DNA of 64,000 nt from a plasmid: sequence record NZ_CP143948.1; one strand, written 5' to 3'. Positions 1-63,840 of this stretch are shown in pieces (the stretch's first letter is position 1; each line of letters begins with the position of its first letter). The notes beneath the pieces were generated by a model, which was not told the origin of the DNA, made no database searches, and saw nothing but the letters and a program-made list of their open reading frames with translations. Position numbers and translations under genes: made by a program.

Positions 1-374
1 ACAAGCGGTGACTGTACACATCTCCGTGTGTGTCCTGTGGACTTTCACACGTTGTTTCTACATTTTGTAGACCATATCTGTTCTGTACAGTGACTTGCCG
101 TCAGTTTCCTAACTTGACATTCGCTCCGCCGAATTCTCTGTCTCATGGACAGTAACTTCAAACTTCATAGCTATCATGCCACAGCAAGTGATATTATACA
201 TGACGTTTACAATAATTGCAATACTTTTTTCAAAAAAAATTTATTTTTTTATTTCGGATAATATTCCATTGAAAAATTACACTTTTGCACGTATATTATT
301 ATAGAAGAAACACGATTAAATGCAAGCAACGTGTAGTTTATTTTTACACGCAGATAAGAAAGGAATATAAACAT

Positions 375-36468: not shown

Positions 36469-36700
36469 GATTCATTTACCTCCTTTTAGATTTTCGCATA
36501 AAAGACATGAGGTATTTGATTTATTAATCAAAGAAACCCTCCTGCCTGTCGACAGAAGGGTACAAGTCAAAATTCAAGATAAATCTCGAAAATTCCCTCG
36601 GTAGGTTCTACGTTTACGCCTTGCGGCACCTACTGTCTTCGGCAATATGCATTGCAATTATATCAAACTATATTACGGATGTCAATTACTTTCCGCAAAA
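36469..36700 (-). promoter_or_regulatory. Probable L10 (rplJ) autoregulatory leader region
   Basis: ~290-nt untranslated region upstream of rplJ within the rplKAJL cluster. Position matches the known L10-leader, but the structure was not verified. Confidence 0.3.
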
Positions 36701-52146: not shown

Positions 52147-55100
52147 TTAATCTGAAACCAGTGGTATCCTTACCTTGCTGACTTCATCCCCGAATATATA
52201 ATATGCATCACCCGGTTCGATTTTCTTTTGATTCTTTCTCTTTATAGCCAGCGGTATATCCACTATCTTGCAATTATCCAGGTTATCAAAAAACAGTATG
52301 CTTTTAGTCTCCTTCATCATTTTATATATATCAGGCGAACCATATGCTATCTGCGCATTTGGTACTGCCCCAAACAGGAGATACACATTTAATACCTTAT
52401 ATTTGCCCATAATATTTTTAAGAGCATTAAGAGCATCCTTGCTATCTGATATCGCTGTATATACCTCCTGACTGTTTATTATGATCAGGGTGTTTTCTTT
52501 TTCCGGATTTTCCTGATGGATGAGTCTCTTATATTTTTCCTCTAAGAGAACCTCTATCATTATTATTTTCTGTATAAATTCATCCGGATCCAGATCATAG
52601 CTTACATTTTCCTGACCGATATCAGACAGCTTGCGCCTGAAATCATCAGCTATATATATATGAGTATCTATTTCGCTGTTTAACATCTGCAACGCAAAAT
52701 ATTTTATAAAATTTGTTCTGCCCATATTATCAGCTCCGGAGATAGTTATGATATTGCATTTATTATGATCTGTGTAAACCGGGGCGACTGTGTCGTATGC
52801 AATTCCTATAATATTCTCATCAATTTTTCTTCTGAATGTGTGATCCACATAGTCCGGTGTGAGCAATTCAGGAATTTCCGGTATCTTGTCAGCAGTGATA
52901 TCCCCATATACAGCATTTATCTGATCTACAAATGCATGCATATTATTAACACGTTCAATTTCCTTAGTTCCCTCAAACGCTAAAAATGTCTGGCACTCGT
53001 ATATTTCCCCATCAATTTCTGTCAGGCACCTGCCAGCAGTCTCATCCGGTCTGAGTTTACAGCTTCCATAAAGAGTCATATACTCACTTGATTCATTACA
53101 AAACATAGCTATTCTGCCGGAAAAGTTTGCCAGATACTTATATCCCAGTCCTGTTGTCTGTAAATTTGAAATAATGAAACTTATTCCTACAGAGCCACCT
53201 TCTCTGCACAGATTGAGCAGTATGTCACTATCCTGCAGATACAGTTCTTTTAATGCAGTATAATTGTCTATGAGTACCACTATCTGAGGTATATCTGTAA
53301 ATCCCGCCTCGCGATATGATGTGTATGAGCTTACTCCCGCTTCAAGCAGTCTTTCACGCCTTTCTTCTATCTGTTCACTCAGATATTTAAACAGATTCTT
53401 CAACCTTTCATCGTCAGAGGGGCATACTACACCTCCTACATGAGCCAGCTTCTCAAAATTTTTAAGTACCATTGATGCAAAATCAATAATATATATGCTA
53501 AGCTCTTCCGGTGAATAGTTTTCTGCCAGATTCCTCACTATCAATTCGAGAAGATTGGTCTTGCCAAACTGCGATGCTCCTATGATAATAGTATTTTTGT
53601 TACCTATCTCTATTACTGTCCGCCCCTGTCTCTGCCTGTCCGGATCGTCGTATATTCCTATTACAGCAGTCGTGGAAAGAGGGGTATCATTATGTGCCAG
53701 TTCGGCATCATATACTATCACTTCTTCCAGCGCAGGCAGACATATATCCGGCAGTTTTTTTACTCCATCGGCTTTACAGTATTTATCTACATATTCGACA
53801 ACTGCCTCCAATTGTGACCTTGACTGCTCTGAATTCTCGAGCTTATGCTTATATACCAAATTCTTTTTTCCCGAAAAATCAAGTTCATATATATCAAACG
53901 GTGTATCATCTTCACCATTTATGCTCTCGGGGCTGCCGGAATATCCCGACTGGAACAATTCAAATATCTCATTATTTCCGACCTGCAAATAAGCCCGGCC
54001 CGGTTCTTTTATTTCTGCGGCTAAAGGAGATTTCAAGACTTCATTACTATCCTCCTGCGTCTGTACTTTAAGACACAATTTAAACTTTGAATTACTCCAA
54101 ATCTGGTCATTAACCTGTCCTGCCGGTTTTTGTGTTGCCAGTATCAGGTGAACTCCCAGGCTTCGTCCTATTCTGGCTGCACTAATCAGCTCCTTCATAA
54201 ATTCCGGCTGCTCTGCCTTTAACTCAGCAAACTCATCTACAATAATGACAAGGTGTGGTAATGCCACTTTTGCTTGTCCCTCTTTATATGCCTTTATGTA
54301 TTTATCTATATGATTAACATTGAGCTGTGCAAACAGATTCTGTCTTTTCAGCAGTTCAGCCTTTATTGACCTGAGTGATCTGTCTATTGCCTTTCCATCA
54401 ATGTTTGTTATGGCACCAATCAAATGAGGCAGCTTTCTAAACTGATTAACCATTCCTCCACCCTTAAAATCAATTATGACAAAACCTATTTCATACGGAT
54501 GAAATAACGTTGCTGCCCCAAGTATAAACGTCTGCAAAATCTCACTTTTTCCTGAGCCTGTTGTTCCGGCCACAAGTCCATGCGGACCGTGAAATTTCTC
54601 ATGCAGATTTAGATAAACAATCTCATCCTTCACATTTACTCCCAACGGAACTGCCATTGTTTCATATATTTTTGATGAATTCCATCTCTCCTTCAAATTC
54701 AATGCCTGCACCGAGTTGATTCCAAGCAGCTCAAACAAAGATATGTTCTTACGCAAAGAGCCTGCCAGGCTTATTTCTTCACACTCCACCGGTTCCAAAA
54801 TGCTGACCGCCTTCTGTACACGCCAATCAGGTATATTCTCATACTCAAAATATTTCTTTTGCGTCTTATTGACCGAATCATATATCATAGCACTCTCATT
54901 GTCGAATATATCAATTATTCTGCTACAATATAATGGCAGCAAAGACGGCTTTGATTCAAAAAATATAAAGACAGTATCGAGCTCTGATGCATGCTCTATA
55001 AATTTTGAAATAGGATGACTCTTTATGCCATAGTCCTGCATTACAATTATTATATTAAATCTGCCATGTACTTTTTCATCTTTTCGTATAGAAAGCTCTT

Positions 55101-55497
55101 TATACAAATTTTCAAATACTCTGTTTTTGCTTTCCTGATCGCAAACTATATTTCTATTGCCATTCGAGCTATTCAAAGCTTTTATTCCCCTAAGCCAATT
55201 ATACTTTCCGATATTATCATCAAGTAATGCATATATACAGATATCACCATAATACTGTCTGCTGATAATATCCATAATCATATTCTTCATAATCGAATAC
55301 AACGAATCCGCATCTCCGACAACCCCCACCGCATTAGCATCCTTCAGACTCATCACAACCGGCGCCTTTTCAATATCCATATATTCTCCTGCCACATGCT
55401 CAGGCAGACTGCTAAGATCATCTCCAACCTCAAGTTTCTCTTGTTTCTTATAGTCTACCTGCCGCAATGACTCAACGTTTCCCCTCCCCAGATACAC
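52147..55497 (-). CDS. essC: Type VII secretion FtsK/SpoIIIE-family ATPase EssC (YukB), ATPase portion; reading frame continues upstream to 55656
   Basis: Multiple FtsK-type P-loops (GTTGSGKSEILQTF..., VIIVDEFAELK...) closely resembling B. subtilis YukB D1. GTG start is ORF-finder derived. The open frame continues to 55656 (IHSKKRNEIEAARRE...). Confidence 0.85.
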   Translation of the reverse strand: MYLGRGNVESLRQVDYKKQEKLEVGDDLSSLPEHVAGEYMDIEKAPVVMSLKDANAVGVVGDADSLYSIMKNMIMDIISRQYYGDICIYALLDDNIGKYNWLRGIKALNSSNGNRNIVCDQESKNRVFENLYKELSIRKDEKVHGRFNIIIVMQDYGIKSHPISKFIEHASELDTVFIFFESKPSLLPLYCSRIIDIFDNESAMIYDSVNKTQKKYFEYENIPDWRVQKAVSILEPVECEEISLAGSLRKNISLFELLGINSVQALNLKERWNSSKIYETMAVPLGVNVKDEIVYLNLHEKFHGPHGLVAGTTGSGKSEILQTFILGAATLFHPYEIGFVIIDFKGGGMVNQFRKLPHLIGAITNIDGKAIDRSLRSIKAELLKRQNLFAQLNVNHIDKYIKAYKEGQAKVALPHLVIIVDEFAELKAEQPEFMKELISAARIGRSLGVHLILATQKPAGQVNDQIWSNSKFKLCLKVQTQEDSNEVLKSPLAAEIKEPGRAYLQVGNNEIFELFQSGYSGSPESINGEDDTPFDIYELDFSGKKNLVYKHKLENSEQSRSQLEAVVEYVDKYCKADGVKKLPDICLPALEEVIVYDAELAHNDTPLSTTAVIGIYDDPDRQRQGRTVIEIGNKNTIIIGASQFGKTNLLELIVRNLAENYSPEELSIYIIDFASMVLKNFEKLAHVGGVVCPSDDERLKNLFKYLSEQIEERRERLLEAGVSSYTSYREAGFTDIPQIVVLIDNYTALKELYLQDSDILLNLCREGGSVGISFIISNLQTTGLGYKYLANFSGRIAMFCNESSEYMTLYGSCKLRPDETAGRCLTEIDGEIYECQTFLAFEGTKEIERVNNMHAFVDQINAVYGDITADKIPEIPELLTPDYVDHTFRRKIDENIIGIAYDTVAPVYTDHNKCNIITISGADNMGRTNFIKYFALQMLNSEIDTHIYIADDFRRKLSDIGQENVSYDLDPDEFIQKIIMIEVLLEEKYKRLIHQENPEKENTLIIINSQEVYTAISDSKDALNALKNIMGKYKVLNVYLLFGAVPNAQIAYGSPDIYKMMKETKSILFFDNLDNCKIVDIPLAIKRKNQKKIEPGDAYYIFGDEVSKVRIPLVSD

Positions 55498-55628
55498 CTC
55501 AAGGAAATCTTCATCTGTAGATATACGATCAAATAATACCGGGTCAAAATTCTCTATATGTTCAATATCCTGCTCTATGCTATAATACTGAGCGTTTAGA
55601 CAATCTAACTCCTCTCTTCTTGCAGCTT

Positions 55629-56318
55629 CTATCTCATTACGTTTTTTGCTATGTATTCAAGATATGTGTCTCTTCGTTTTACAAGGTCTTTCTTATACTT
55701 CTTTTGTTTATTTATAATACCAAATATGGATGTAAAGACTCCAACACCCATGGAACATATACTAAATGCAACAAAAGCTCCATTTGACTTGCTCATCACT
55801 CCTCTAAGCAGCACTACCAGAGCAAACATAATAATCGAAGGCATCAATGAAGTAACCAGATTGAGTTCCGGTTTTGTCGGAATAGTACCCGGATCTAATA
55901 TTTCTATTGGAGTTTTATCTCTTTTTGCCTGTATTCGCGTATTACGAATAAAGACAGGATATGTTGTATGTATATCCAAGCTCTCCGGTCTGACCTCAAC
56001 TCCATTTGTTCTGATAGCTCCATAATCAAAGAAAATTTTTCCATTATTGTAATATGCAGTAAAATCTCCTATTGATATGAAATCATGATTTTTTACTGTT
56101 GCAATCCTTTGAATACTTTTTCCATTTACTAATGTGTTGTATGACGAACTATATTCCGATAACATAGCACATGATATATCATCTTTCACCTGCAATCCTA
56201 CTCTCACAGCTCTACCATATGCACTGTCAAGCTGTATATGTGCATCAGGTGCATTCCCTATTATCAGAACATATCCCGGATTTAATTCTATTGACCATCC
56301 ATAATTTTCCATTTTCAT
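55629..56318 (-). CDS. essC: EssC N-terminal fragment (FHA domains plus TM helices), separated from the ATPase portion by a -1 frameshift
   Basis: FHA-like YGWSIELNPGYVLIIGN... followed by two TM helices. Ends 11 codons after an A6 tract (minus-strand GCAAAAAACG, plus-strand T6 at 55644-55649). A7 there would fuse the two frames seamlessly (YLEYIAKKRNEIE). Confidence 0.75.
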   Translation of the reverse strand: MKMENYGWSIELNPGYVLIIGNAPDAHIQLDSAYGRAVRVGLQVKDDISCAMLSEYSSSYNTLVNGKSIQRIATVKNHDFISIGDFTAYYNNGKIFFDYGAIRTNGVEVRPESLDIHTTYPVFIRNTRIQAKRDKTPIEILDPGTIPTKPELNLVTSLMPSIIMFALVVLLRGVMSKSNGAFVAFSICSMGVGVFTSIFGIINKQKKYKKDLVKRRDTYLEYIAKNVMR

Positions 56319-56575
56319 TTTCTCCCAAATATAATTGTCGAACCATTCCTAACACCAAAATCCTCAAGCATCCTGTTTCCTTTCAAAAATGCAATTGGCT
56401 GCTCACAGGCCATATAACATTCATTCTCATTGGCTTCATCAATTTGCAGATTATATGCTTTGTTTAATGCAGTCACCAGAGCTTTGGCTGTTATATTCAA
56501 GGGGATTTCCAATTCATGTCTTTTTCCATTATTTTCATTCACAAAATTTACAATAACCTTTTCACTATCTTCCAT
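56315..56575 (-). CDS. esaB: EsaB/YukD ubiquitin-like T7SS protein
   Basis: 86 aa, beta-grasp-like. 4-nt overlap with the essC N-terminal ORF. GAGGAG RBS. Confidence 0.65.
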   Translation of the reverse strand: MEDSEKVIVNFVNENNGKRHELEIPLNITAKALVTALNKAYNLQIDEANENECYMACEQPIAFLKGNRMLEDFGVRNGSTIIFGRK

Positions 56576-56598
56576 TACGATGCTCCTCTTTACATTAT

Positions 56599-56642
56599 TA
56601 CGTCAATTTTTAGGTTGGTAATGTTAAAAGCACATTGCGTGT
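56599..56642 (-). repeat. Partial copy of the promoter-leader repeat (upstream half only)
   Basis: TCAATTTTTAGGTTGGTAATGTTAAAAGCACATTGCGTGTA matches 57250..57289. Confidence 0.7.
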
Positions 56643-56677
56643 AACAACATTTTTCAATTATGTAAATACTATTTCTT

Positions 56678-56926
56678 TTACAACTCGCATAGTACTTTAT
56701 CTGCCCGCAACCTTTCTATAAAATCCTCTATTGCTTCCGTTTCCGTATTATACTTATCAACTGAGTTAGTAATTTTACTAGCACGTTCATCCGTCACATA
56801 TACTATCCATTTTTCATTTTCTTTCTTAAGCACTACTTCATTTTCTCTATTTTCTCGTTCTTCGCATAAATTGTAACCTTGAAGACTTTCCTCTTGTATT
56901 ATTTTTCTTGCATCCTCTATTTTCAT
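56678..56926 (-). CDS. Small acidic protein, paralog of 57353..57613
   Basis: 82 aa sharing motifs with its paralog (IIQEESL, WxVYxTDERASKIT, FIxRLRA). GGAGGTCAGAAG RBS. Confidence 0.55.
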   Translation of the reverse strand: MKIEDARKIIQEESLQGYNLCEERENRENEVVLKKENEKWIVYVTDERASKITNSVDKYNTETEAIEDFIERLRADKVLCEL

Positions 56927-56941
56927 CTTCTGACCTCCATA

Positions 56942-57061
56942 CTAGTTTATTTCTCTTAATAATCCTAATCTTTCTAATTCTACCGTTGACGAAAGTTCAT
57001 ACTGTATTGCTCCTCCTTTCCCCCATCCTTCAACTGCTGCTTTTCCTTTATATGAAGCCAA
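56942..57061 (-). CDS. 39-aa small ORF after repeat copy 1 (TTG start; contains EGWGKGG)
   Basis: AAAAGGAG RBS 10 nt before the TTG. Its stop abuts the RBS of the next gene. Could be a gene remnant. Confidence 0.2.
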   Translation of the reverse strand: MASYKGKAAVEGWGKGGAIQYELSSTVELERLGLLREIN

Positions 57062-57075
57062 TCTACTATAATCTC

Positions 57076-57289
57076 CTTTTAGTAAAATTTTATATACAAA
57101 AAGGCTGCAGCGTCCGATATTACCGGATGTTGCAGCCGATCTGTCATTACATAAATGTTACTCCGTGTTAGACTCTAGCTTTGCGACCTTACGTTTCCAT
57201 AAGTGTGCCCTTTTATACGCAAAATTTTATCGTATTTGCATTTTTATGTCAATTTTTAAGTTGGTAATGTTAAAAGCACATTGCGTGTA
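57076..57289 (-). repeat. Promoter-leader repeat copy 1
   Basis: ~200 bp, ~95% identical to copies at 59400..59595 and 61458..61654. In gene orientation it reads TTGACA-17-TAAAAT promoter, ~110-nt conserved leader, then a GGCTGCA...TGCAGCC hairpin followed by TTTTTGTATAT. Confidence 0.85.
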
Positions 57290-57352
57290 TAAAGCGTAAT
57301 TTTTCTTCCGTAGATAACTGAACCATTAAACGTATTACTTCCGTAAATTACC

Positions 57353-57613
57353 TCAGTTTTTTAATACATTTAATGCCCTTAATCTTGTAATAAAATTATC
57401 TAATGCCTCTTCCTCTGTTTTAAACTTTTTTTCTGAACCTGTTATTTTACTTGCTCTCTCATCAGTTGCATATACCAACCATTGCTCTGCAACATTCATA
57501 ATTACCATTTCATTCTCTTTATTTTCCCTTTTTTCAAACAGATTTCCTCCTTTTAAACTCTCTTCATCAATAATCTTTTTCACTTCTTCTACTGTCATTA
57601 TACTTTCCTCCAC
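57353..57613 (-). CDS. Small acidic protein, paralog of 56678..56926
   Basis: 86 aa, same family. Confidence 0.55.
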   Translation of the reverse strand: MEESIMTVEEVKKIIDEESLKGGNLFEKRENKENEMVIMNVAEQWLVYATDERASKITGSEKKFKTEEEALDNFITRLRALNVLKN

Positions 57614-57688
57614 TATTTCCTATTTCTGCATTTTTTAAGTTTTTTCTGAACCTCCTATGTCACTTGTTCTCATCAATTACGACACACT

Positions 57689-58288
57689 TTACTTAATAAT
57701 ATCATATATCTCTTTTTCACTTAATGTTTCTTCAAATATTGCTTCATACCCTCTAACTCGTTCTAATATCACTTTTAAATACACCGCTTCATTATAAAAC
57801 CTTTCAAACACAAACGGAGCTTCTTCATTTTCTTCGATATACTCACATTCACCATTTGGTCCAAGCAAATAAATATTATATTTATTTGACCCTTTTTCCT
57901 CTAAATTAATTTTTAATTTTTGTGGATTCATAATTGAGTAATAACTTTCACCAATATGTAACTTCATTATTTCATTAACATCTGAAAGTTTTACCACACC
58001 TTCTATTTTCTCTAAACCACTGTAATCTATTCCTTCACTAAAAAAAACTTTTATTGCAATTGCAAAATTTGTTTCCATTTCTTTTTCTGAATAATATTCA
58101 GCTATTTTTATGCGCTCATTCCTTTGTATGCAATAAAAATAAAATATTTCTTTTTCTTCTTGCAAGACATAAGATGTCTCAACATCATATATAATTCTTA
58201 TTTCATTTTCATTTGAAACAATATTTATTTTTTTTCCAACATATTTTTCCAACTTTTTAAAATATGCTTTTTCTAAATCGATACTCAT
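57689..58288 (-). CDS. Immunity-like protein (199 aa), tandem paralog of 58304..58897
   Basis: Shared motifs with its paralog (LxKxxxYVGKxIxxV, NPFVFxRFYNEV). Soluble, acidic, T7SS-adjacent. Confidence 0.5.
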   Translation of the reverse strand: MSIDLEKAYFKKLEKYVGKKINIVSNENEIRIIYDVETSYVLQEEKEIFYFYCIQRNERIKIAEYYSEKEMETNFAIAIKVFFSEGIDYSGLEKIEGVVKLSDVNEIMKLHIGESYYSIMNPQKLKINLEEKGSNKYNIYLLGPNGECEYIEENEEAPFVFERFYNEAVYLKVILERVRGYEAIFEETLSEKEIYDIIK

Positions 58289-58303
58289 TTTCCCTCTTTC
58301 ATT

Positions 58304-58897
58304 TTAGTAGCCTAACAGCTGTATTTTCACATCATCTTCTAACTTATCTTCAAAAACTTCCTCATACTCTCTAATTTGTCTCATCGTTTCACCATAATAA
58401 GTTACTTCGTTATAAAATCTTTTGAACACAAATGGATTTTCTGTCTCTTGTTCTAATATGTATTTCTTACCGTTTTTATCCAAAAAGAAAATACTATACT
58501 GACCATCTTCACTTTTCAATATATTAATTTTCTCTTCTTTTGGGTCATTTATGGAATACGTCTTTTCGTCTGCATATTGCTGCATCAATATTCTTAGTTC
58601 TTCTACACTGGTAACTTCTCTAAATTTTCCTGAAAATGGATATTTAATATTTTCACTAAAATTACTCTTTACCCATAATGCAAAATTTCTTTTCATATCC
58701 ACTTCTGATGTATATCTTTTTTCTTCCGTTTCCTTTCCTCTTTCACTAACATACAATATATACTTTTGTTCCTTTTTTCTTAAAAAATATTGAATTTCAG
58801 AATCCAAATAGATATGGACTTCATTGTCACTCTCTACCAACTGAATATCTTTACCTACATACTGCTTTAATTTTTCTAAATAATCACGATTAAACAT
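58304..58897 (-). CDS. Immunity-like protein (197 aa), tandem paralog
   Basis: See 57689..58288. Confidence 0.5.
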   Translation of the reverse strand: MFNRDYLEKLKQYVGKDIQLVESDNEVHIYLDSEIQYFLRKKEQKYILYVSERGKETEEKRYTSEVDMKRNFALWVKSNFSENIKYPFSGKFREVTSVEELRILMQQYADEKTYSINDPKEEKINILKSEDGQYSIFFLDKNGKKYILEQETENPFVFKRFYNEVTYYGETMRQIREYEEVFEDKLEDDVKIQLLGY

Positions 58898-59012
58898 TTA
58901 TTCTTTTCTCCTATACTTTTTCATATTCATTCACACCCTCCTGTTAATGTATAAAATTATGGTCTTATTTTAAAAGCAGCTCTGCTGCTCTTGAAATAAA
59001 GCCACAATATAA

Positions 59013-59043
59013 CTACAATACAAATACAATACAATACAATACA
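59013..59043. repeat. (TACAA)n pentanucleotide microsatellite, ~6 units
   Basis: Reads tacaa tacaaa tacaa tacaa tacaa tacaa. Lies immediately downstream of the esxA terminator hairpin. Confidence 0.8.
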
Positions 59044-59045
59044 AT

Positions 59046-59068
59046 TCCACACCACAGCCTGTGGTGTG
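59046..59068 (-). terminator. Hairpin after esxA
   Basis: CCACACCACAG / CTGTGGTGTGG near-perfect inverted repeat, 22 nt after the esxA stop. Confidence 0.5.
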
Positions 59069-59089
59069 GAATCCGGCATTGAATGAATT

Positions 59090-59386
59090 TTACATGCTGA
59101 ACTGATTTGCTATCTGTGTATCGGTTGCCTCTACTGCCTCTGCAGTCTTGTCAAGTGCCATTGCGATATCATCGATCAGCTCTTTTCCTTTTACAAATGA
59201 AGGTCTGAGCTCTGCAAACTTGTTGGCATATGCCTCTGATGCTGCACCTTCCCACTCTGTGAGCAGTGTGTCCAGTAATCTGTCCATCTTGTCGATTACA
59301 TTCTGTACATTCTCTGCTTCTGTCCTGTACTCTCCAGCCCTTTCTCTCATTGTGTCAGGTGTCATTCTGATCTGTCCTGATGCCAT
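59090..59386 (-). CDS. esxA: WXG100 family secreted protein EsxA
   Basis: ~98 aa with WXG motif (LLTEWEGAAS) and helical hairpin. Start at MASGQIR, 9 nt after an AAAGGAGG RBS. Confidence 0.85.
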   Translation of the reverse strand: MASGQIRMTPDTMRERAGEYRTEAENVQNVIDKMDRLLDTLLTEWEGAASEAYANKFAELRPSFVKGKELIDDIAMALDKTAEAVEATDTQIANQFSM

Positions 59387-59399
59387 TTTCATGTTCCTC

Positions 59400-59595
59400 C
59401 TTTAGGTAAAATTTTATATACAAAAAGGCTGCAGCGTCCGATATTACCGGATGTTGCAGCCGATCTGTCATTACATAAATGTTACTCCGTGTTAGACTCT
59501 AGCTTTGCGACCTTACGTTTCCATAAGTGTGCCCTTTTATACACAATATTTTATCGTATTTGCATTTTTATGTCAATTTTTAGGTTAGTAATGTT
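59400..59595 (-). repeat. Promoter-leader repeat copy 2 (directly upstream of esxA)
   Basis: -35 TTGACA (plus 59571-59576), 17-nt spacer, -10 TAAAAT (plus 59548-59553). Terminator-like hairpin at 59427-59461 followed by a U-run, then the esxA RBS. Confidence 0.85.
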
Positions 59596-59758
59596 TTATC
59601 ATATATTTTCCTTATATGGTGTCCACTTCTGAACAATACAATCTACATCTTTTAATTCTACATACTTATATTGCTATTTTTCCTAATGTTTTCATTTTAT
59701 TACCTTCTATTCATCATTTTTCAAGTTTTCCCGTGCAGTATGCATTATTTTGATTCAA

Positions 59759-60142
59759 TCATACTTCTATTTTCTTTTTTTCTTGAACTACTTCTATTTT
59801 ATCCTTGGCAATTTCTTTCTCATACAAGTACTTATCTGTTCTATTCAATCCAAGTATATCAGCAATTTTTCTATCACCTGTACCTACAAAAAAAGTATCT
59901 TTCAACTCTTTCCTAATACTAACCTTATAACCATTAATCAAACCATAAGTTCTACACTCATATGCTTCTTGAATTTCATTTGGCGAAATTATTTTACTAT
60001 ATACTCCGCTATTATATTCATCAACAAACGTTGCATCTATTATTTCGCGATTTGTTGTAATTATTATTAAGTTTCCATCATTATCCTCATTTAATTCGTA
60101 CTCATTTCCATTATATACACAAAATTCACCATTTTTTATCAT
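59759..60142 (-). CDS. Immunity-like protein, family A (127 aa)
   Basis: Paralog of 60731..61045 and 61677..62060 (MIKNGEFCxYNGNEYELNEDxDGN...YYFVGT). Immediately follows the toxin-domain ORF. Confidence 0.55.
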   Translation of the reverse strand: MIKNGEFCVYNGNEYELNEDNDGNLIIITTNREIIDATFVDEYNSGVYSKIISPNEIQEAYECRTYGLINGYKVSIRKELKDTFFVGTGDRKIADILGLNRTDKYLYEKEIAKDKIEVVQEKKKIEV

Positions 60143-60145
60143 TTT

Positions 60146-60697
60146 CTATTTTCCTTTCACTTCTACAAAATGTTTACCATCAAATATTGCAACAACAGTA
60201 TCTTTTCCATTAACAACTTTATGTAATTCCGCACCTTTCTTAGGTTTTACATATTCACCACTTAAAGACCACTCGGGTATAATTTGCCCATTCCTTGCAC
60301 CTGTAAATCCATTTAATGTACAAGGAGGACCATCTGTATTTGTTCCACCGAATATTTCCCCATATGGTGTCTTTATTTTTTCTGCATCTGTTGTCTTGAA
60401 TTTAATATATGCATAAGTATCTCCACCTTCCGGATACGGTCTTACTCCATCACCTGTTACATAATCAAGTCGCGACGACTCCACAACATTATCATATCCT
60501 TTTATGTGTGATACATCATCATATCTTGCCACATAACCGCCAATTGTAGACCAGCCATCTTCTCCTATATACTTGTCTATATCCGAAGCCGGTATTGTCT
60601 TTTGAATATAAGTGTTAGCATCTATCTTTGGAACTGCCTCGCGTATTGCCTTCATCTGTGCGATTTGCTCCTTTGTTAAATCCTTTACATCCGTCAA
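60146..60697 (-). CDS. Putative stand-alone toxin-domain protein (183 aa)
   Basis: Gly/Tyr-rich soluble protein directly upstream of an immunity-like gene. Its last ~50 bp are duplicated at 62061..62110. Confidence 0.4.
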   Translation of the reverse strand: MTDVKDLTKEQIAQMKAIREAVPKIDANTYIQKTIPASDIDKYIGEDGWSTIGGYVARYDDVSHIKGYDNVVESSRLDYVTGDGVRPYPEGGDTYAYIKFKTTDAEKIKTPYGEIFGGTNTDGPPCTLNGFTGARNGQIIPEWSLSGEYVKPKKGAELHKVVNGKDTVVAIFDGKHFVEVKGK

Positions 60698-60730
60698 TCT
60701 TAACTTATTAATTTCCCGTGAATGGTGGTG

Positions 60731-61045
60731 TCATCTTTGTAACCCCAAGGCTCCTGCTACTTTACAATCTGCTGTTCCCACAAAATAATATTCTTGATTT
60801 TCTTTTTCTACATTAACTTTATAATTGTTTATTACTGCATATGTTGCATATCTGTACAACTCTTCTATTTCTTCTAATGAAACTTTTTTACTATAAACAC
60901 CACTTCCGTATTTATCTATAAATGTTGAGTCGATTATTTTATCATTTTTAGTAAGGATAATTGTATTTCCATCACTATCCTTATTTACCTTAAATTCATT
61001 TCCATTATATATACAAAATCTACCGTTTTTTATCGTTCTTCCCAT
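60731..61045 (-). CDS. Immunity-like protein, family A (104 aa)
   Basis: Family A paralog. Confidence 0.55.
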   Translation of the reverse strand: MGRTIKNGRFCIYNGNEFKVNKDSDGNTIILTKNDKIIDSTFIDKYGSGVYSKKVSLEEIEELYRYATYAVINNYKVNVEKENQEYYFVGTADCKVAGALGLQR

Positions 61046-61061
61046 AATTACAATACACTTA

Positions 61062-61448
61062 TTATATTTTTTCTTTTAATACTTCAATTTCCGCCTCATT
61101 TTTATTAATCCATTTTTGATACATCCCCTTATCTATGCACTCCATCCCTAAACGAATCCACTCTTGGTAATCACCCTTCATTGTTAATATTAAAATTTGT
61201 TTTTCCGTTTCATCAACTACTATAAACTTATATCCTTCATAAACAGCATATGTTTTTTTATCATATATTTCCTCAATTTCATCTTTTTGAACATACTTTA
61301 TATATATTCTATTATTTCCAATCTCTTTTTCTACAAACCCCTCTTTTTTACTAGCATCATCCTCTGACCGCAAAACAATTCTACCATCTTTTTTAATTCC
61401 AGCAGAGTATTCGATTCCTTTGTAAATTGCAAAAGTAATATTTCTCAT
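61062..61448 (-). CDS. Immunity-like protein, distant family A relative (128 aa)
   Basis: Start at MRNITFAIYKG (61448), after an AGGGAGGAAAA RBS contributed by repeat copy 3. The ORF track is over-extended to 61529. Confidence 0.5.
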   Translation of the reverse strand: MRNITFAIYKGIEYSAGIKKDGRIVLRSEDDASKKEGFVEKEIGNNRIYIKYVQKDEIEEIYDKKTYAVYEGYKFIVVDETEKQILILTMKGDYQEWIRLGMECIDKGMYQKWINKNEAEIEVLKEKI

Positions 61449-61457
61449 TTTTCCTCC

Positions 61458-61654
61458 CTTTAGGTAAAATTTTATATACAAAAAGGCTGCAGCGTCCGAT
61501 ATTACCGGATGTTGCAGCCGATCTGTCATTACATAAATGTTACTCCGTGTTAGACTCTAGCTTTGCGACCTTACGTTTCCATAAGTGTGCCCTTTTATAT
61601 GCAAAATTTTATCGTATTTGCATTTTTATGTCAATTTTTAGGTTGGTAATGTTT
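61458..61654 (-). repeat. Promoter-leader repeat copy 3
   Basis: Same as copy 2, with hairpin at 61485-61519. Confidence 0.85.
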
Positions 61655-61676
61655 TATTACAATTTAATTGTTCACG

Positions 61677-63006: not shown

Positions 63007-63390
63007 TTAAAAATACATAATATCAATACTGCTTACATTGCTTCTAGCATCATAATCTGATGATATTTTTCCCCAGCTATATTCCATCTGCTGATTAATA
63101 CCTAATTCATTTAATATATCATCGTGTAATATTTTTCTTTTATCCTCATCTTTTTCCGAAAACTCTTTATCACAACATATCAAAGACATCATATATATCT
63201 TCCCATTCCTAAAGAATAAACTTACAATATATTTCCTATTATCAATGATTTGTTGTTCATCTAAATAAAAAATTCTCAACCCATCTTGATTCTTATAGAA
63301 TCTTGTGTTTTTAAACTGTTCAAATGAAAAGCCAGGAAAAATTATTAGCTTATCTGATATTTTAAAAAATCCATTGCTGATATCTAGCAT
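63007..63390 (-). CDS. Immunity-like protein (127 aa)
   Basis: Small soluble protein 16 bp downstream of a putative toxin-domain gene. Confidence 0.45.
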   Translation of the reverse strand: MLDISNGFFKISDKLIIFPGFSFEQFKNTRFYKNQDGLRIFYLDEQQIIDNRKYIVSLFFRNGKIYMMSLICCDKEFSEKDEDKRKILHDDILNELGINQQMEYSWGKISSDYDARSNVSSIDIMYF

Positions 63391-63405
63391 TATTAGCTTC
63401 CTCCC

Positions 63406-63840
63406 TTACTTATTTAATTTAATATTACCAACAGGAGGTAATATCCCTTTATCAATCAAATCTTGAACATCAGGAACATAATATTGTGGCAATCCTCCTT
63501 TTCCAAATTGCGGATTTGCGTTTGTTATTCCATATGCACTCGCAACATCCTCATTAAATATATAGCCTTGCATTTCTCCTCTATAGCCATGTATAGGATT
63601 TTTCTCCACCTGCAACCCTTCAAATAATTTCGTTGCATCTCTGCCAGACTGTTCAATTGCATCTAAAGTTGTAAAATACTCCGTTCCATTCGGTTCTCCT
63701 CGATATAAAACAGTACCCTTTTCAACGGTAATATCAACATAGTCATCTATACCTGGATATTTTCCTGTTCCTTGCCAACTCCTTGCAATTTCAGAAGGTG
63801 TCTTACTACCAATCTGGTATGCTAAACACATAGGAATCAA
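63406..63840 (-). CDS. Putative toxin-domain protein (144 aa)
   Basis: Gly/Tyr-rich soluble protein with an in-frame stop 4 codons upstream of its ATG. Upstream of an immunity-like gene. Confidence 0.4.
   Translation of the reverse strand: MIPMCLAYQIGSKTPSEIARSWQGTGKYPGIDDYVDITVEKGTVLYRGEPNGTEYFTTLDAIEQSGRDATKLFEGLQVEKNPIHGYRGEMQGYIFNEDVASAYGITNANPQFGKGGLPQYYVPDVQDLIDKGILPPVGNIKLNK

What the first reader, a model, noticed from the sequence alone, without database searches (positions are those of the whole stretch)
56599..61654. ~200-bp promoter-leader repeat (3 full copies plus 1 partial): consensus sigma-70 promoter followed by a leader ending in a terminator-like hairpin, candidate attenuator/riboswitch or sRNA
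Copies at 57076-57289, 59400-59595 and 61458-61654 are ~95% identical. In gene orientation each contains an AT-rich UP region and a TTGACA-17-TAAAAT promoter. A ~110-nt conserved leader follows (AAAAGGGCACACTTATGGAAACGTAAGGTCGCAAAGCTAGAGTCTAACACGGAGTAACATTTATGTAATGACAGATC). Then a 13-bp GGCTGCA..TGCAGCC hairpin and TTTTTGTATAT sit immediately before the RBS of esxA (copy 2), of a toxin/immunity gene set (copy 3) and of the small-ORF/esaB/essC unit (copy 1). An intrinsic-terminator-like structure inside a 5-prime leader repeated before three T7SS transcription units implies conditional read-through (riboswitch, protein-mediated antitermination) or a repeated sRNA gene. The repeats would also provide homology for cassette shuffling of toxin/immunity modules.
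Basis: seen in the sequence. Interest (0 to 1): 0.7.

Follow-up and report, generated by a model that had tools for sequence, protein, structure and literature searches.

The report
c-di-GMP riboswitches gating T7SS genes
The repeated ~200-bp unit is a promoter plus a standard cyclic-di-GMP class I riboswitch with a built-in terminator, present three times in front of type VII secretion, toxin and immunity genes of a human-gut Agathobacter (Eubacterium) rectalis-like bacterium, which suggests that this second messenger switches on the bacterium's contact-dependent weaponry.

Summary
In detail: three ~200-nt copies (96-98% identical) plus one promoter-only fragment lie at the stated coordinates. 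The conserved "leader" is a known RNA class. Each copy scores 57-58 bits against Rfam c-di-GMP-I (RF01051, threshold 35). Each copy also has a TTGACA-17-TAAAAT promoter and an intrinsic terminator. The terminator's 5' arm (GGCUGCA) is also the 3' strand of aptamer helix P2 and includes the putative ligand-pairing C. Aptamer and terminator are therefore mutually exclusive, which predicts an ON switch: c-di-GMP gives read-through, as in Bc2 and pilM. The host is A. rectalis-like (EsxA 95% identical; DNA ~99% identical to strain contigs). In 10 of 10 strain contigs the riboswitch precedes esxA, and a second copy precedes Imm59-YukD-EssC. Two paralogous riboswitch families from gut metagenomes precede DUF4176/YwqH/LXG-toxin and Rhs-type toxin operons. 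The terminator covaries across paralogues. Other species' esxA loci lack the element (only one close relative, L001, carries a copy elsewhere in its locus). No paper found links c-di-GMP riboswitches to T7SS. Verdict: a new member of a known riboswitch class with an apparently unreported regulon. ON/OFF polarity and ligand binding remain untested.

The parts
61606..61634 (-). Copy 3 promoter, TTGACA-17-TAAAAT
   Evidence: 11/12 match; alignment
61510..61601 (-). Copy 3 c-di-GMP-I aptamer
   Evidence: RF01051, 58.5 bits (gathering score 35), full-length model match
61480..61519 (-). Copy 3 intrinsic terminator (35-nt hairpin 61519-61485 plus U5). Its first 9 nt (GGCUGCAAC, containing the 7-nt 5' arm GGCUGCA) lie inside the aptamer match.
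   Evidence: coordinates by offset from copy 2; sequence identical; fold; covariation
59759..61448 (-). Copy 3 transcription unit: 128-aa and 104-aa immunity-like genes (61062-61448, 60731-61045), an orphan toxin C-terminal domain (60146-60697) and its 127-aa immunity gene (59759-60142)
   Evidence: ORFs; homologous genes in L080 carry PF27768/UCP033725; the toxin tip matches the C-terminus of full-length toxins in L081 and L128
59548..59576 (-). Copy 2 promoter, TTGACA-17-TAAAAT
59452..59543 (-). Copy 2 c-di-GMP-I aptamer
   Evidence: 57.8 bits
59422..59461 (-). Copy 2 terminator hairpin (59461-59427) plus U-tract (59426-59422). GGCU at 59461-59458 is also the aptamer P2 3' strand.
59090..59392 (-). 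esxA (WXG100), with RBS GGAGG at 59396-59400
   Evidence: Pfam PF06013, E 1e-19, 95% identical to the [Eubacterium] rectale WXG100 protein
57353..58897 (-). Rest of the esxA unit: two paralogous ~198-aa genes of unknown function (58304-58897, 57689-58288) and an Imm59 immunity gene (57353-57613)
   Evidence: same order in L080-L089
57224..57252 (-). Copy 1 promoter, TTGACA-17-TAAAAT
57128..57219 (-). Copy 1 c-di-GMP-I aptamer
   Evidence: 57.4 bits
57098..57137 (-). Copy 1 terminator hairpin plus U-tract
   Evidence: by offset from copy 2; identical sequence
56942..57061 (-). 39-codon remnant of the 3' end of a TNT-type toxin gene, directly after copy 1
   Evidence: window 57084-56620 is 96% identical to L085 9320-9791, which is the end of a PT-TG/TNT toxin plus Imm59
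56678..56926 (-). Imm59 immunity gene
   Evidence: PF15597, E 9e-8
56584..56643 (-). Partial repeat copy: upstream flank and -35 box only, with no -10 box, aptamer or terminator. Probably the truncated 5' end of a former cassette.
   Evidence: only a weak promoter-like hit here (9/12)
52147..56575 (-). YukD/EsaB-like gene (56315-56575) and EssC ATPase. In this window EssC is split into 229-aa and 1116-aa ORFs by a 1-nt deletion in a poly-A run near 55647.
   Evidence: YukD, FtsK_SpoIIIE; single 1390-aa gene in L080-L083

Best explanation
Each repeat is a self-contained regulatory cassette: a strong sigma-70-type promoter, a class I cyclic-di-GMP riboswitch aptamer that starts a few nucleotides after the predicted transcription start, and an intrinsic terminator that begins inside the aptamer. 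At low c-di-GMP the terminator forms and transcripts should end at about 120 nt. At high c-di-GMP the ligand-locked aptamer holds GGCU (the P2 3' strand) and the ligand-pairing C, so the terminator loses its four basal pairs and its contact with the U-tract. RNA polymerase then reads into esxA, into YukD-EssC, and into the toxin/immunity modules. This would be an ON switch. The cassette can also stop read-through from the module upstream of it. Shown here: the RNA class, the promoter match, the strand overlap, terminator covariation, and conservation of the gene association within the lineage. Inferred: ligand binding, ON polarity, and the physiological logic that high c-di-GMP (sessile, crowded cells) turns on contact-dependent T7SS antagonism.
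For: Rfam RF01051 hits of 57.4-58.5 bits against a gathering score of 35, full-length, for all three copies. Paralogues from other contigs score 59-62.5 bits. At Rfam consensus positions 11, 38 and 83, which I map to Vc2 G20, A47 and C92, the sequence has G, A and C (alignment; residue roles from PMC6140456). The terminator is -20.3 kcal/mol and falls to -9.9 without the shared GGCU. In all three paralogue types the unconstrained ensemble forms the terminator (P 0.92-1.00), and locking the aptamer costs 5.1-8.7 kcal/mol. That is less than a pM-nM ligand can supply (Kd values from PMC6140456). Across 52 non-redundant leaders the terminator is 91% paired, against 8-42% in slid controls, and 4 of 15 pairs change on both sides. 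Mutual exclusivity of aptamer and terminator is the published hallmark of the ON design (pilM), whereas in the OFF design (Cd1) the two folds coexist (PMC9262584). Bc2 is a class I ON switch that works by read-through (PMC4933901). The riboswitch lies upstream of esxA in 10 of 10 strain contigs, and a second copy lies upstream of Imm59-YukD-EssC. Paralogue B precedes DUF4176, YwqH-like, DUF5344 and LXG genes, and paralogue C1 precedes a DUF6531/Rhs-type toxin. All three types carry TTGACA-17-TAAAAT at the same distance from the aptamer.
Against: There is no experimental evidence of binding or termination. The aptamer shows no compensatory double changes within this close family, so its identity rests on the Rfam score. 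All seven functional class I riboswitches of C. difficile, another member of Clostridia, are OFF switches (PMC6366702), and that paper warns that polarity cannot be extrapolated. The simple terminator scanner did not flag these hairpins because of their internal mismatches. The U-tract is short and interrupted (UUUUUGUAU). A motif scan found no c-di-GMP synthase or phosphodiesterase gene in the window, so the host's c-di-GMP metabolism was not verified here. My mapping of Rfam columns to Vc2 numbering is my own inference.
Confidence: 0.78

Rival explanations
1. It is a c-di-GMP-I riboswitch but an OFF switch: ligand binding favours termination, so T7SS genes are expressed at low c-di-GMP, in motile cells.
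For: All functional class I riboswitches in C. difficile are OFF switches (PMC6366702).
Against: OFF designs need the aptamer and terminator to coexist, with a separate antiterminator competing (PMC9262584). Here the terminator's 5' arm lies inside the aptamer, there is no spacer that could hold an antiterminator, and the ligand-free ensemble already forms the terminator with P 0.92-1.00.
Confidence: 0.12
2. The aptamer senses another cyclic dinucleotide, such as 3',3'-cGAMP (GEMM-Ib type), rather than c-di-GMP.
For: GEMM-I and GEMM-Ib aptamers are nearly indistinguishable by a covariance model. A rare type B allele (L127, L132, L169) has A at the position I map to G20.
Against: All window copies and the large majority of paralogues have G at the position I map to G20. 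Wild-type Vc2 with G20 binds cGAMP only at about 10 uM, against pM for c-di-GMP (PMC6140456).
Confidence: 0.04
3. The abundant ~120-nt terminated leaders, made from three or more identical strong promoters, also act in trans as an sRNA or as a c-di-GMP sponge. This is not exclusive of cis regulation.
For: There are several identical copies with near-consensus promoters. Type C2 copies have no intact downstream gene yet keep promoter, aptamer and terminator.
Against: No target complementarity was sought or found. Every window copy has an RBS and an ORF 20-25 nt after the U-tract. C2 copies are followed by what looks like a decayed LXG-like gene, which fits a relic better than a dedicated sRNA.
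Confidence: 0.08
4. The repeats are non-functional hitch-hikers spread by toxin-cassette recombination. Only the promoter matters and the riboswitch is decaying.
For: The locus is highly recombinogenic, with remnants and orphan modules.
Against: The aptamer and terminator are 100% identical among the copies while the flanks differ. Substitutions across strains and paralogues preserve pairing. Rfam scores stay at 57-62 bits in all three paralogue types.
Confidence: 0.04

Closest known systems
Bc2 c-di-GMP-I riboswitch of Bacillus thuringiensis (cap gene)
   Same: It is a class I aptamer followed directly by an intrinsic terminator next to the ORF. It acts as an ON switch by read-through, with a terminated product of ~121 nt (PMC4933901). 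The length predicted here is about 120 nt.
   Different: Bc2 is a single copy that controls an adhesin. Here the unit is dispersed in three or more copies and controls T7SS genes. ON behaviour here is only predicted.
Cd1 (Cdi-1-3) c-di-GMP-I riboswitch of Clostridioides difficile (flgB operon)
   Same: It belongs to the same Rfam family, its host is also in Clostridia, and it acts on transcription (PMC6366702, PMC9262584).
   Different: Cd1 is an OFF switch with a long expression platform in which aptamer and terminator coexist. Here the two overlap and exclude each other. The target is flagella rather than secretion and toxins.
pilM GEMM-Ib (cGAMP) riboswitch of Geobacter
   Same: It has a compact ON architecture in which the aptamer and terminator folds are mutually exclusive (PMC9262584).
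   Different: Its ligand is cGAMP, with A at the G20 position. Here that position is G.
Triple-tandem Bc3-5 c-di-GMP riboswitch (B. thuringiensis)
   Same: It also involves several c-di-GMP-I aptamers acting on one locus (PMC4759541).
   Different: Bc3-5 are three aptamers in series within one 5'-UTR. Here each copy has its own promoter and terminator and heads its own transcription unit.
Vc2 riboswitch upstream of tfoY in Vibrio cholerae
   Same: It is a class I c-di-GMP aptamer and the structural reference for residues G20, A47 and C92 (PMC6140456). From my own knowledge, not checked here, TfoY activates type VI secretion, which would be a functional parallel between c-di-GMP and a contact-dependent weapon.
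   Different: Its link to secretion is indirect, through a regulator protein, and it does not work by termination (PMC6366702). Here the riboswitch sits directly on the apparatus and toxin genes of a T7SS.

Membership tests
c-di-GMP-I riboswitch (GEMM-I, Rfam RF01051) | Covariance-model score at or above the curated gathering score, over the full model | tested here: met
   57.4, 57.8 and 58.5 bits against 35, model positions 1-87 of 87
c-di-GMP-I riboswitch (GEMM-I, Rfam RF01051) | Two adjacent hairpins, the first capped by a GNRA (GAAA) tetraloop, the second carrying the conserved CUAA...A-UGAC receptor-like internal loop | tested here: met
   The alignment shows CUUAUG-GAAA-CGUAAG, GUCUAA and UAAUGAC matching the upper-case consensus columns. 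97% of cells are paired across 52 leaders.
c-di-GMP-I riboswitch (GEMM-I, Rfam RF01051) | Ligand-contact nucleotides G20, A47 and C92 (Vc2 numbering); G rather than A at position 20 separates c-di-GMP sensors from cGAMP sensors | tested here: met
   G, A and C at Rfam consensus positions 11, 38 and 83. Residue roles come from PMC6140456. The mapping from Rfam columns to Vc2 numbers is my inference.
c-di-GMP-I riboswitch (GEMM-I, Rfam RF01051) | Compensatory base changes in the aptamer helices within this lineage | tested here: inconclusive
   Only one-sided changes (U-A to U-G, C-G to U-G) and no double changes. The sequences are too close to one another.
c-di-GMP-I riboswitch (GEMM-I, Rfam RF01051) | Specific high-affinity binding of c-di-GMP | not testable with these tools
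   Needs in-line probing, ITC or equilibrium dialysis
Transcriptional ON riboswitch (Bc2 / pilM type) | An intrinsic terminator (GC-rich hairpin plus U-tract) between the aptamer and the ORF | tested here: met
   -20.3 kcal/mol hairpin plus U5. 4 of 15 pairs covary, and 91% are paired against 8-42% in slid controls. The simple scanner missed it because of internal mismatches.
Transcriptional ON riboswitch (Bc2 / pilM type) | The aptamer and terminator folds share nucleotides and are mutually exclusive | tested here: met
   GGCU is both the P2 3' strand and the start of the terminator 5' arm, and the C92 equivalent is also in that arm. The same overlap occurs in paralogues B and C.
Transcriptional ON riboswitch (Bc2 / pilM type) | The ligand increases read-through in vitro or in vivo | not testable with these tools
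   Needs termination assays or reporter fusions
Firmicutes-type T7SS locus | A WXG100 substrate, an FtsK/SpoIIIE-type EssC ATPase and a YukD/EsaB ubiquitin-like protein encoded together | tested here: met
   Pfam PF06013, PF01580 and PF08817. The subtype (T7SSb or a newer variant, PMC11217815) was not resolved.
Stand-alone sRNA gene | Own promoter and terminator with no co-oriented ORF directly downstream | tested here: not met
   All three window copies have an RBS and an ORF 20-25 nt after the U-tract.

The most novel reading that the evidence does not exclude
In one of the most abundant human gut commensals, c-di-GMP is the direct, protein-free master signal for type VII secretion. A portable promoter-riboswitch-terminator cassette heads the apparatus genes (esxA, essC) and nearly every effector module (LXG, Rhs-type, TNT toxins and orphan immunity genes). 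The same cassette serves as the homology tract through which toxin/immunity modules are swapped, so newly acquired modules are wired into the regulon automatically.
Probability: 0.45. Interest if true: 0.68.

Novelty: new member of a known kind. Interest (0 to 1): 0.5.

Why it matters
Regulation of Firmicutes T7SS is poorly understood. A 2024 survey of T7SS variants mentions neither riboswitches nor c-di-GMP (PMC11217815). If confirmed, this would be a direct second-messenger switch on both a T7SS apparatus and its antibacterial toxins, in a dominant butyrate-producing gut species. It would give a simple, testable handle on when these bacteria attack their neighbours, through reporter fusions and termination assays. 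It would also add a new target class to the c-di-GMP riboswitch regulon, which so far covers motility, pili, adhesins and proteases. Finally, it offers a worked example of a regulatory cassette that travels with polymorphic-toxin modules.

Tried and rejected
- The exact-sequence look-up of the window's EsxA found nothing, so I used the 95%-identical P0005 instead.
- A covariance model built from the window aptamer alone, a core-motif pattern and full Rfam scans of 15 loci found no c-di-GMP-I element near esxA in 78 other species. The hoped-for cross-species covariation at orthologous positions was therefore not available. Paralogues from metagenomes were used instead.
- The simple terminator scanner did not flag the riboswitch hairpins, so I relied on ViennaRNA folding and pair counts.
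- The aptamer pair counts gave no double changes.
- Five literature searches for a link between c-di-GMP riboswitches and T7SS, WXG100 or E. rectale returned nothing relevant.
- A motif scan of the window for GGDEF, EAL, HD-GYP and PilZ ORFs found none.
- A long-range helix in the MFE between the A-rich 5' end and the U-tract was judged a by-product of A-tract/U-tract composition and was not pursued.
- Protein-mediated antitermination and the cGAMP reading were considered and set aside, on the strength of the Rfam match and the G at the position equivalent to G20.


Full report
**1. Observation**

The repeat is real and sits at the stated place. The repeat finder reports one family of three 201-nt direct copies at 57075-57275, 59399-59599 and 61457-61657 (96-98% identity). 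A fourth, 60-nt partial member lies at 56584-56643. All genes in this region are on the minus strand.

Read in gene orientation and aligned, the three copies are 100% identical from the start of the conserved leader through the hairpin and U-tract. They differ only in the few bases between the -10 box and the leader, and downstream of the U-tract. The partial copy shares only the upstream flank and the -35 hexamer.

The TTGACA-17-TAAAAT promoters are the three best sigma-70 matches (11 of 12) in the 12 kb scanned.

**2. What the leader is**

An Rfam scan of the whole window at gathering thresholds places a full-length c-di-GMP-I riboswitch aptamer (RF01051) in each copy:

| Copy | Coordinates (minus strand) | Bits (gathering score 35) |
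|---|---|---|
| 1 | 57128-57219 | 57.4 |
| 2 | 59452-59543 | 57.8 |
| 3 | 61510-61601 | 58.5 |

The alignment to the family consensus shows the GAAA-capped first hairpin, the GACGCAAAGC-type junction (here GUCGCAAAGC), and the CUAA / A-UGAC internal loop of the second hairpin.

At the consensus columns that I map to Vc2 residues G20, A47 and C92, the sequence has G, A and C. G20 and C92 are the bases that read the two guanines of c-di-GMP, and cGAMP-sensing relatives carry A at position 20 (PMC6140456). The column-to-residue mapping is my inference. The "candidate riboswitch" is therefore a member of a well-known class, and its likely ligand is c-di-GMP.

**3. Expression platform and polarity**

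Its first four bases, GGCU, are also the 3' strand of aptamer helix P2 (pairs A40-U, G41-C, C42-G, U43-G in the Rfam alignment). The C92-equivalent also lies in the same arm. Without GGCU the hairpin drops to -9.9 kcal/mol and ends 4 nt short of the U-tract.

For the window type and for two paralogous types found elsewhere, the ligand-free ensemble forms the terminator (probability 0.92-1.00 for its seven basal pairs). Enforcing the aptamer helices costs 5.1-8.7 kcal/mol. That is less than the binding energy implied by pM-nM dissociation constants (PMC6140456).

A published side-by-side study states the design rule. In the ON switch pilM the aptamer and terminator folds are mutually exclusive. 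In the OFF switch Cd1 they coexist, and a separate antiterminator competes with the terminator (PMC9262584). The leaders here follow the first pattern and have no room for an antiterminator.

The class I riboswitch Bc2 of B. thuringiensis works this way, with a ~121-nt terminated product (PMC4933901). The predicted terminated species here is about 120 nt.

I therefore predict an ON switch. This is an inference. All functional class I switches of C. difficile are OFF, and the authors of that review warn against extrapolating polarity (PMC6366702).

**4. Host and gene context**

The window also contains the L10 leader and the Clostridia-type S10 leader. EsxA is 95% identical to the WXG100 protein of [Eubacterium] rectale, now Agathobacter rectalis. 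The DNA is about 99% identical to contigs carrying that protein.

Pfam assigns WXG100 to the gene after copy 2. It assigns Imm59, YukD and FtsK/SpoIIIE (EssC) to genes after copy 1, and Imm59 to the last gene of the esxA unit. The genes after copy 3 are immunity-like (their L080 homologues carry PF27768/UCP033725), together with an orphan toxin C-terminal domain and its immunity gene.

**5. Conservation**

*Within the lineage.* In ten strain-level contigs encoding the 95%-identical EsxA, a riboswitch lies about 60 nt upstream of esxA in all ten. A second copy lies upstream of the remnant-Imm59-YukD-EssC unit in every contig that extends that far. One contig (L080) has the third copy, like the window.

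*Across species.* An EsxA-profile scan of one genome per species returned 79 loci. My covariance model, a core-motif pattern and full Rfam scans of 15 of these loci found a c-di-GMP-I element in only one, L001. L001 is a close relative with 94% EsxA identity. Its element sits about 7.5 kb downstream of esxA, beyond essC, and esxA itself has no leader. Among the genomes sampled, the wiring is therefore specific to the A. rectalis lineage.

**6. Paralogues**

A metagenome scan used a pattern that excludes the main window allele. It returned 119 human-gut contigs carrying two further families of the same riboswitch. These score 59-62.5 bits in Rfam.

| Type | What follows it |
|---|---|
| A (window type) | esxA in 11 loci; toxin remnant + Imm59, then YukD/EssC, in 6; immunity/orphan-toxin cassette in 2 |
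| B | DUF4176, a YwqH-like protein, DUF5344 and an LXG toxin; 62 of 78 loci with enough sequence start with DUF4176 |
| C1 | The N-terminus of a DUF6531/Rhs-type toxin, in 14 of 15 loci |
| C2 (the L001 type) | What looks like a frameshifted LXG-like remnant |

All types carry TTGACA-17-TAAAAT at the same distance from the aptamer, with different spacer sequences. All keep the CGGCUGCA aptamer/terminator overlap, while the distal terminator stem differs in sequence.

On 52 non-redundant leaders the terminator is 91% paired, against 8-42% when the partner columns are slid. Four of its 15 pairs change on both sides: AU/UA, CG/UA, GC/AU and GC/CG. These represent few independent events. The aptamer is 97% paired but shows only one-sided changes.

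**7. Recombination**

Relative to L081 and L083, the window and L080 carry an extra module between the toxin's N-terminal region and its C-terminal tip. This module includes riboswitch copy 3, and it leaves the old tip and its immunity gene as downstream orphans.

The 39-codon ORF after copy 1 is the 3' end of a TNT-type toxin gene. In L085 that gene is intact and lies, with its Imm59 gene, just upstream of the esxA riboswitch. The partial repeat at 56584-56643 is best read as the truncated start of such a cassette.

Several contigs carry hybrid leaders with the 5' half of type C and the 3' half of type B. This shows recombination within the riboswitch itself.

**8. Comparison with what is known, and novelty**

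The RNA class, its ligand and the ON-by-read-through mechanism are all known, so this is a new member of a known kind.

What appears to be new is the target. Five full-text searches found no paper linking c-di-GMP riboswitches to T7SS, WXG100 or E. rectale. A 2024 survey of T7SS variants mentions neither riboswitches nor c-di-GMP. The library does not cover all journals, and automated genome annotation probably already labels these riboswitches.

The physiological reading is that crowded, sessile cells with high c-di-GMP arm a contact-dependent weapon. This is plausible but is an inference.

**9. Limits**

There are no binding or termination data. Polarity is predicted only. The host's c-di-GMP enzymes were not examined, and none is encoded in the window by motif scan. 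The paralogue contigs are assumed, from sequence similarity, to come from the same lineage. The T7SS subtype was not resolved.

Noticed in passing
window 52147-56318 (about 55647): EssC is split into 229-aa and 1116-aa ORFs by a 1-nt deletion in a poly-A run (A6 here, A7 in L081, where the gene is a single 1390-aa ORF). L086 also has a split EssC. This could be a sequencing error, a pseudogene or homopolymer phase variation.
   Followed up: partly
window 59018-59073 (minus strand, just after esxA): A 14-bp hairpin (GAUUCCACACCACAGGCUGUGGUGUGGAAUU) is followed by about six tandem UUGUA-like pentamers. It looks like an esxA-proximal terminator or attenuator separating esxA from the downstream genes.
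   Followed up: no
window 36521-36660 and 95-176 (minus strand): A ribosomal protein L10 leader (78 bits) and an S10-Clostridia leader (72 bits) are present. The T7SS island therefore lies within about 20 kb of core ribosomal-protein operons.
   Followed up: no
window 56942-57061: A 39-codon ORF directly after riboswitch copy 1 is the 3' end of a PT-TG/TNT toxin gene that is intact in L085 and L088. It is a toxin remnant left by cassette recombination.
   Followed up: yes
window 60146-60697 and 59759-60142: An orphan toxin C-terminal domain and its immunity gene sit here. The same tip ends full-length toxins in L081 (7514-9247) and appears in an Rhs-type gene in L128.
   Followed up: partly
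window 63007-63840: Another toxin C-terminal domain (ending ...GKGGLPQYYVPDVQDLIDKGIL..., similar to the remnant after copy 1) is followed by a 127-aa probable immunity gene. The 62-64 kb stretch looks like an array of toxin and immunity fragments.
   Followed up: no
L127:1832-1977, also L132 and L169: A type B riboswitch allele reads AAGAGCAC instead of AAGGGCAC, which puts A at the position I map to Vc2 G20, the change that gives cGAMP or dual specificity. In these loci the downstream DUF4176 start is fused to the C-terminal part of an LXG toxin, so the locus is rearranged.
   Followed up: partly
L098, L124, L153, L206, L207: These contigs carry hybrid riboswitch leaders, with a type C promoter and 5' aptamer joined to a type B 3' aptamer and terminator. 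This is evidence for recombination inside the riboswitch.
   Followed up: partly
L001:9526-10392, and L163, L175: Type C2 leaders keep an intact promoter, aptamer and terminator but have no intact downstream gene. An LXG-like ORF is interrupted at a T6 run, and a tRNA gene follows about 700 nt later. L163 and L175 carry two type C copies 4 kb apart.
   Followed up: partly
window 59380-59552 (copy 2 leader): In the full-leader MFE, the A-rich 5' end (UAUAAAAGG, which includes conserved aptamer bases) pairs with the U-tract and the following UUUUUGUAUAUA, enclosing the whole riboswitch. This is probably a composition effect, but it could influence the read-through mRNA.
   Followed up: no
L053 and L010: esxA-bearing contigs are filed under Escherichia coli and Bacteroides MAG or isolate bins. 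This is almost certainly binning contamination in the public records.
   Followed up: no
window 58304-58897 and 57689-58288: Two paralogous ~198-aa genes between esxA and Imm59 have no significant Pfam hit. They are conserved in this position in all the strain contigs that extend that far downstream of esxA.
   Followed up: no
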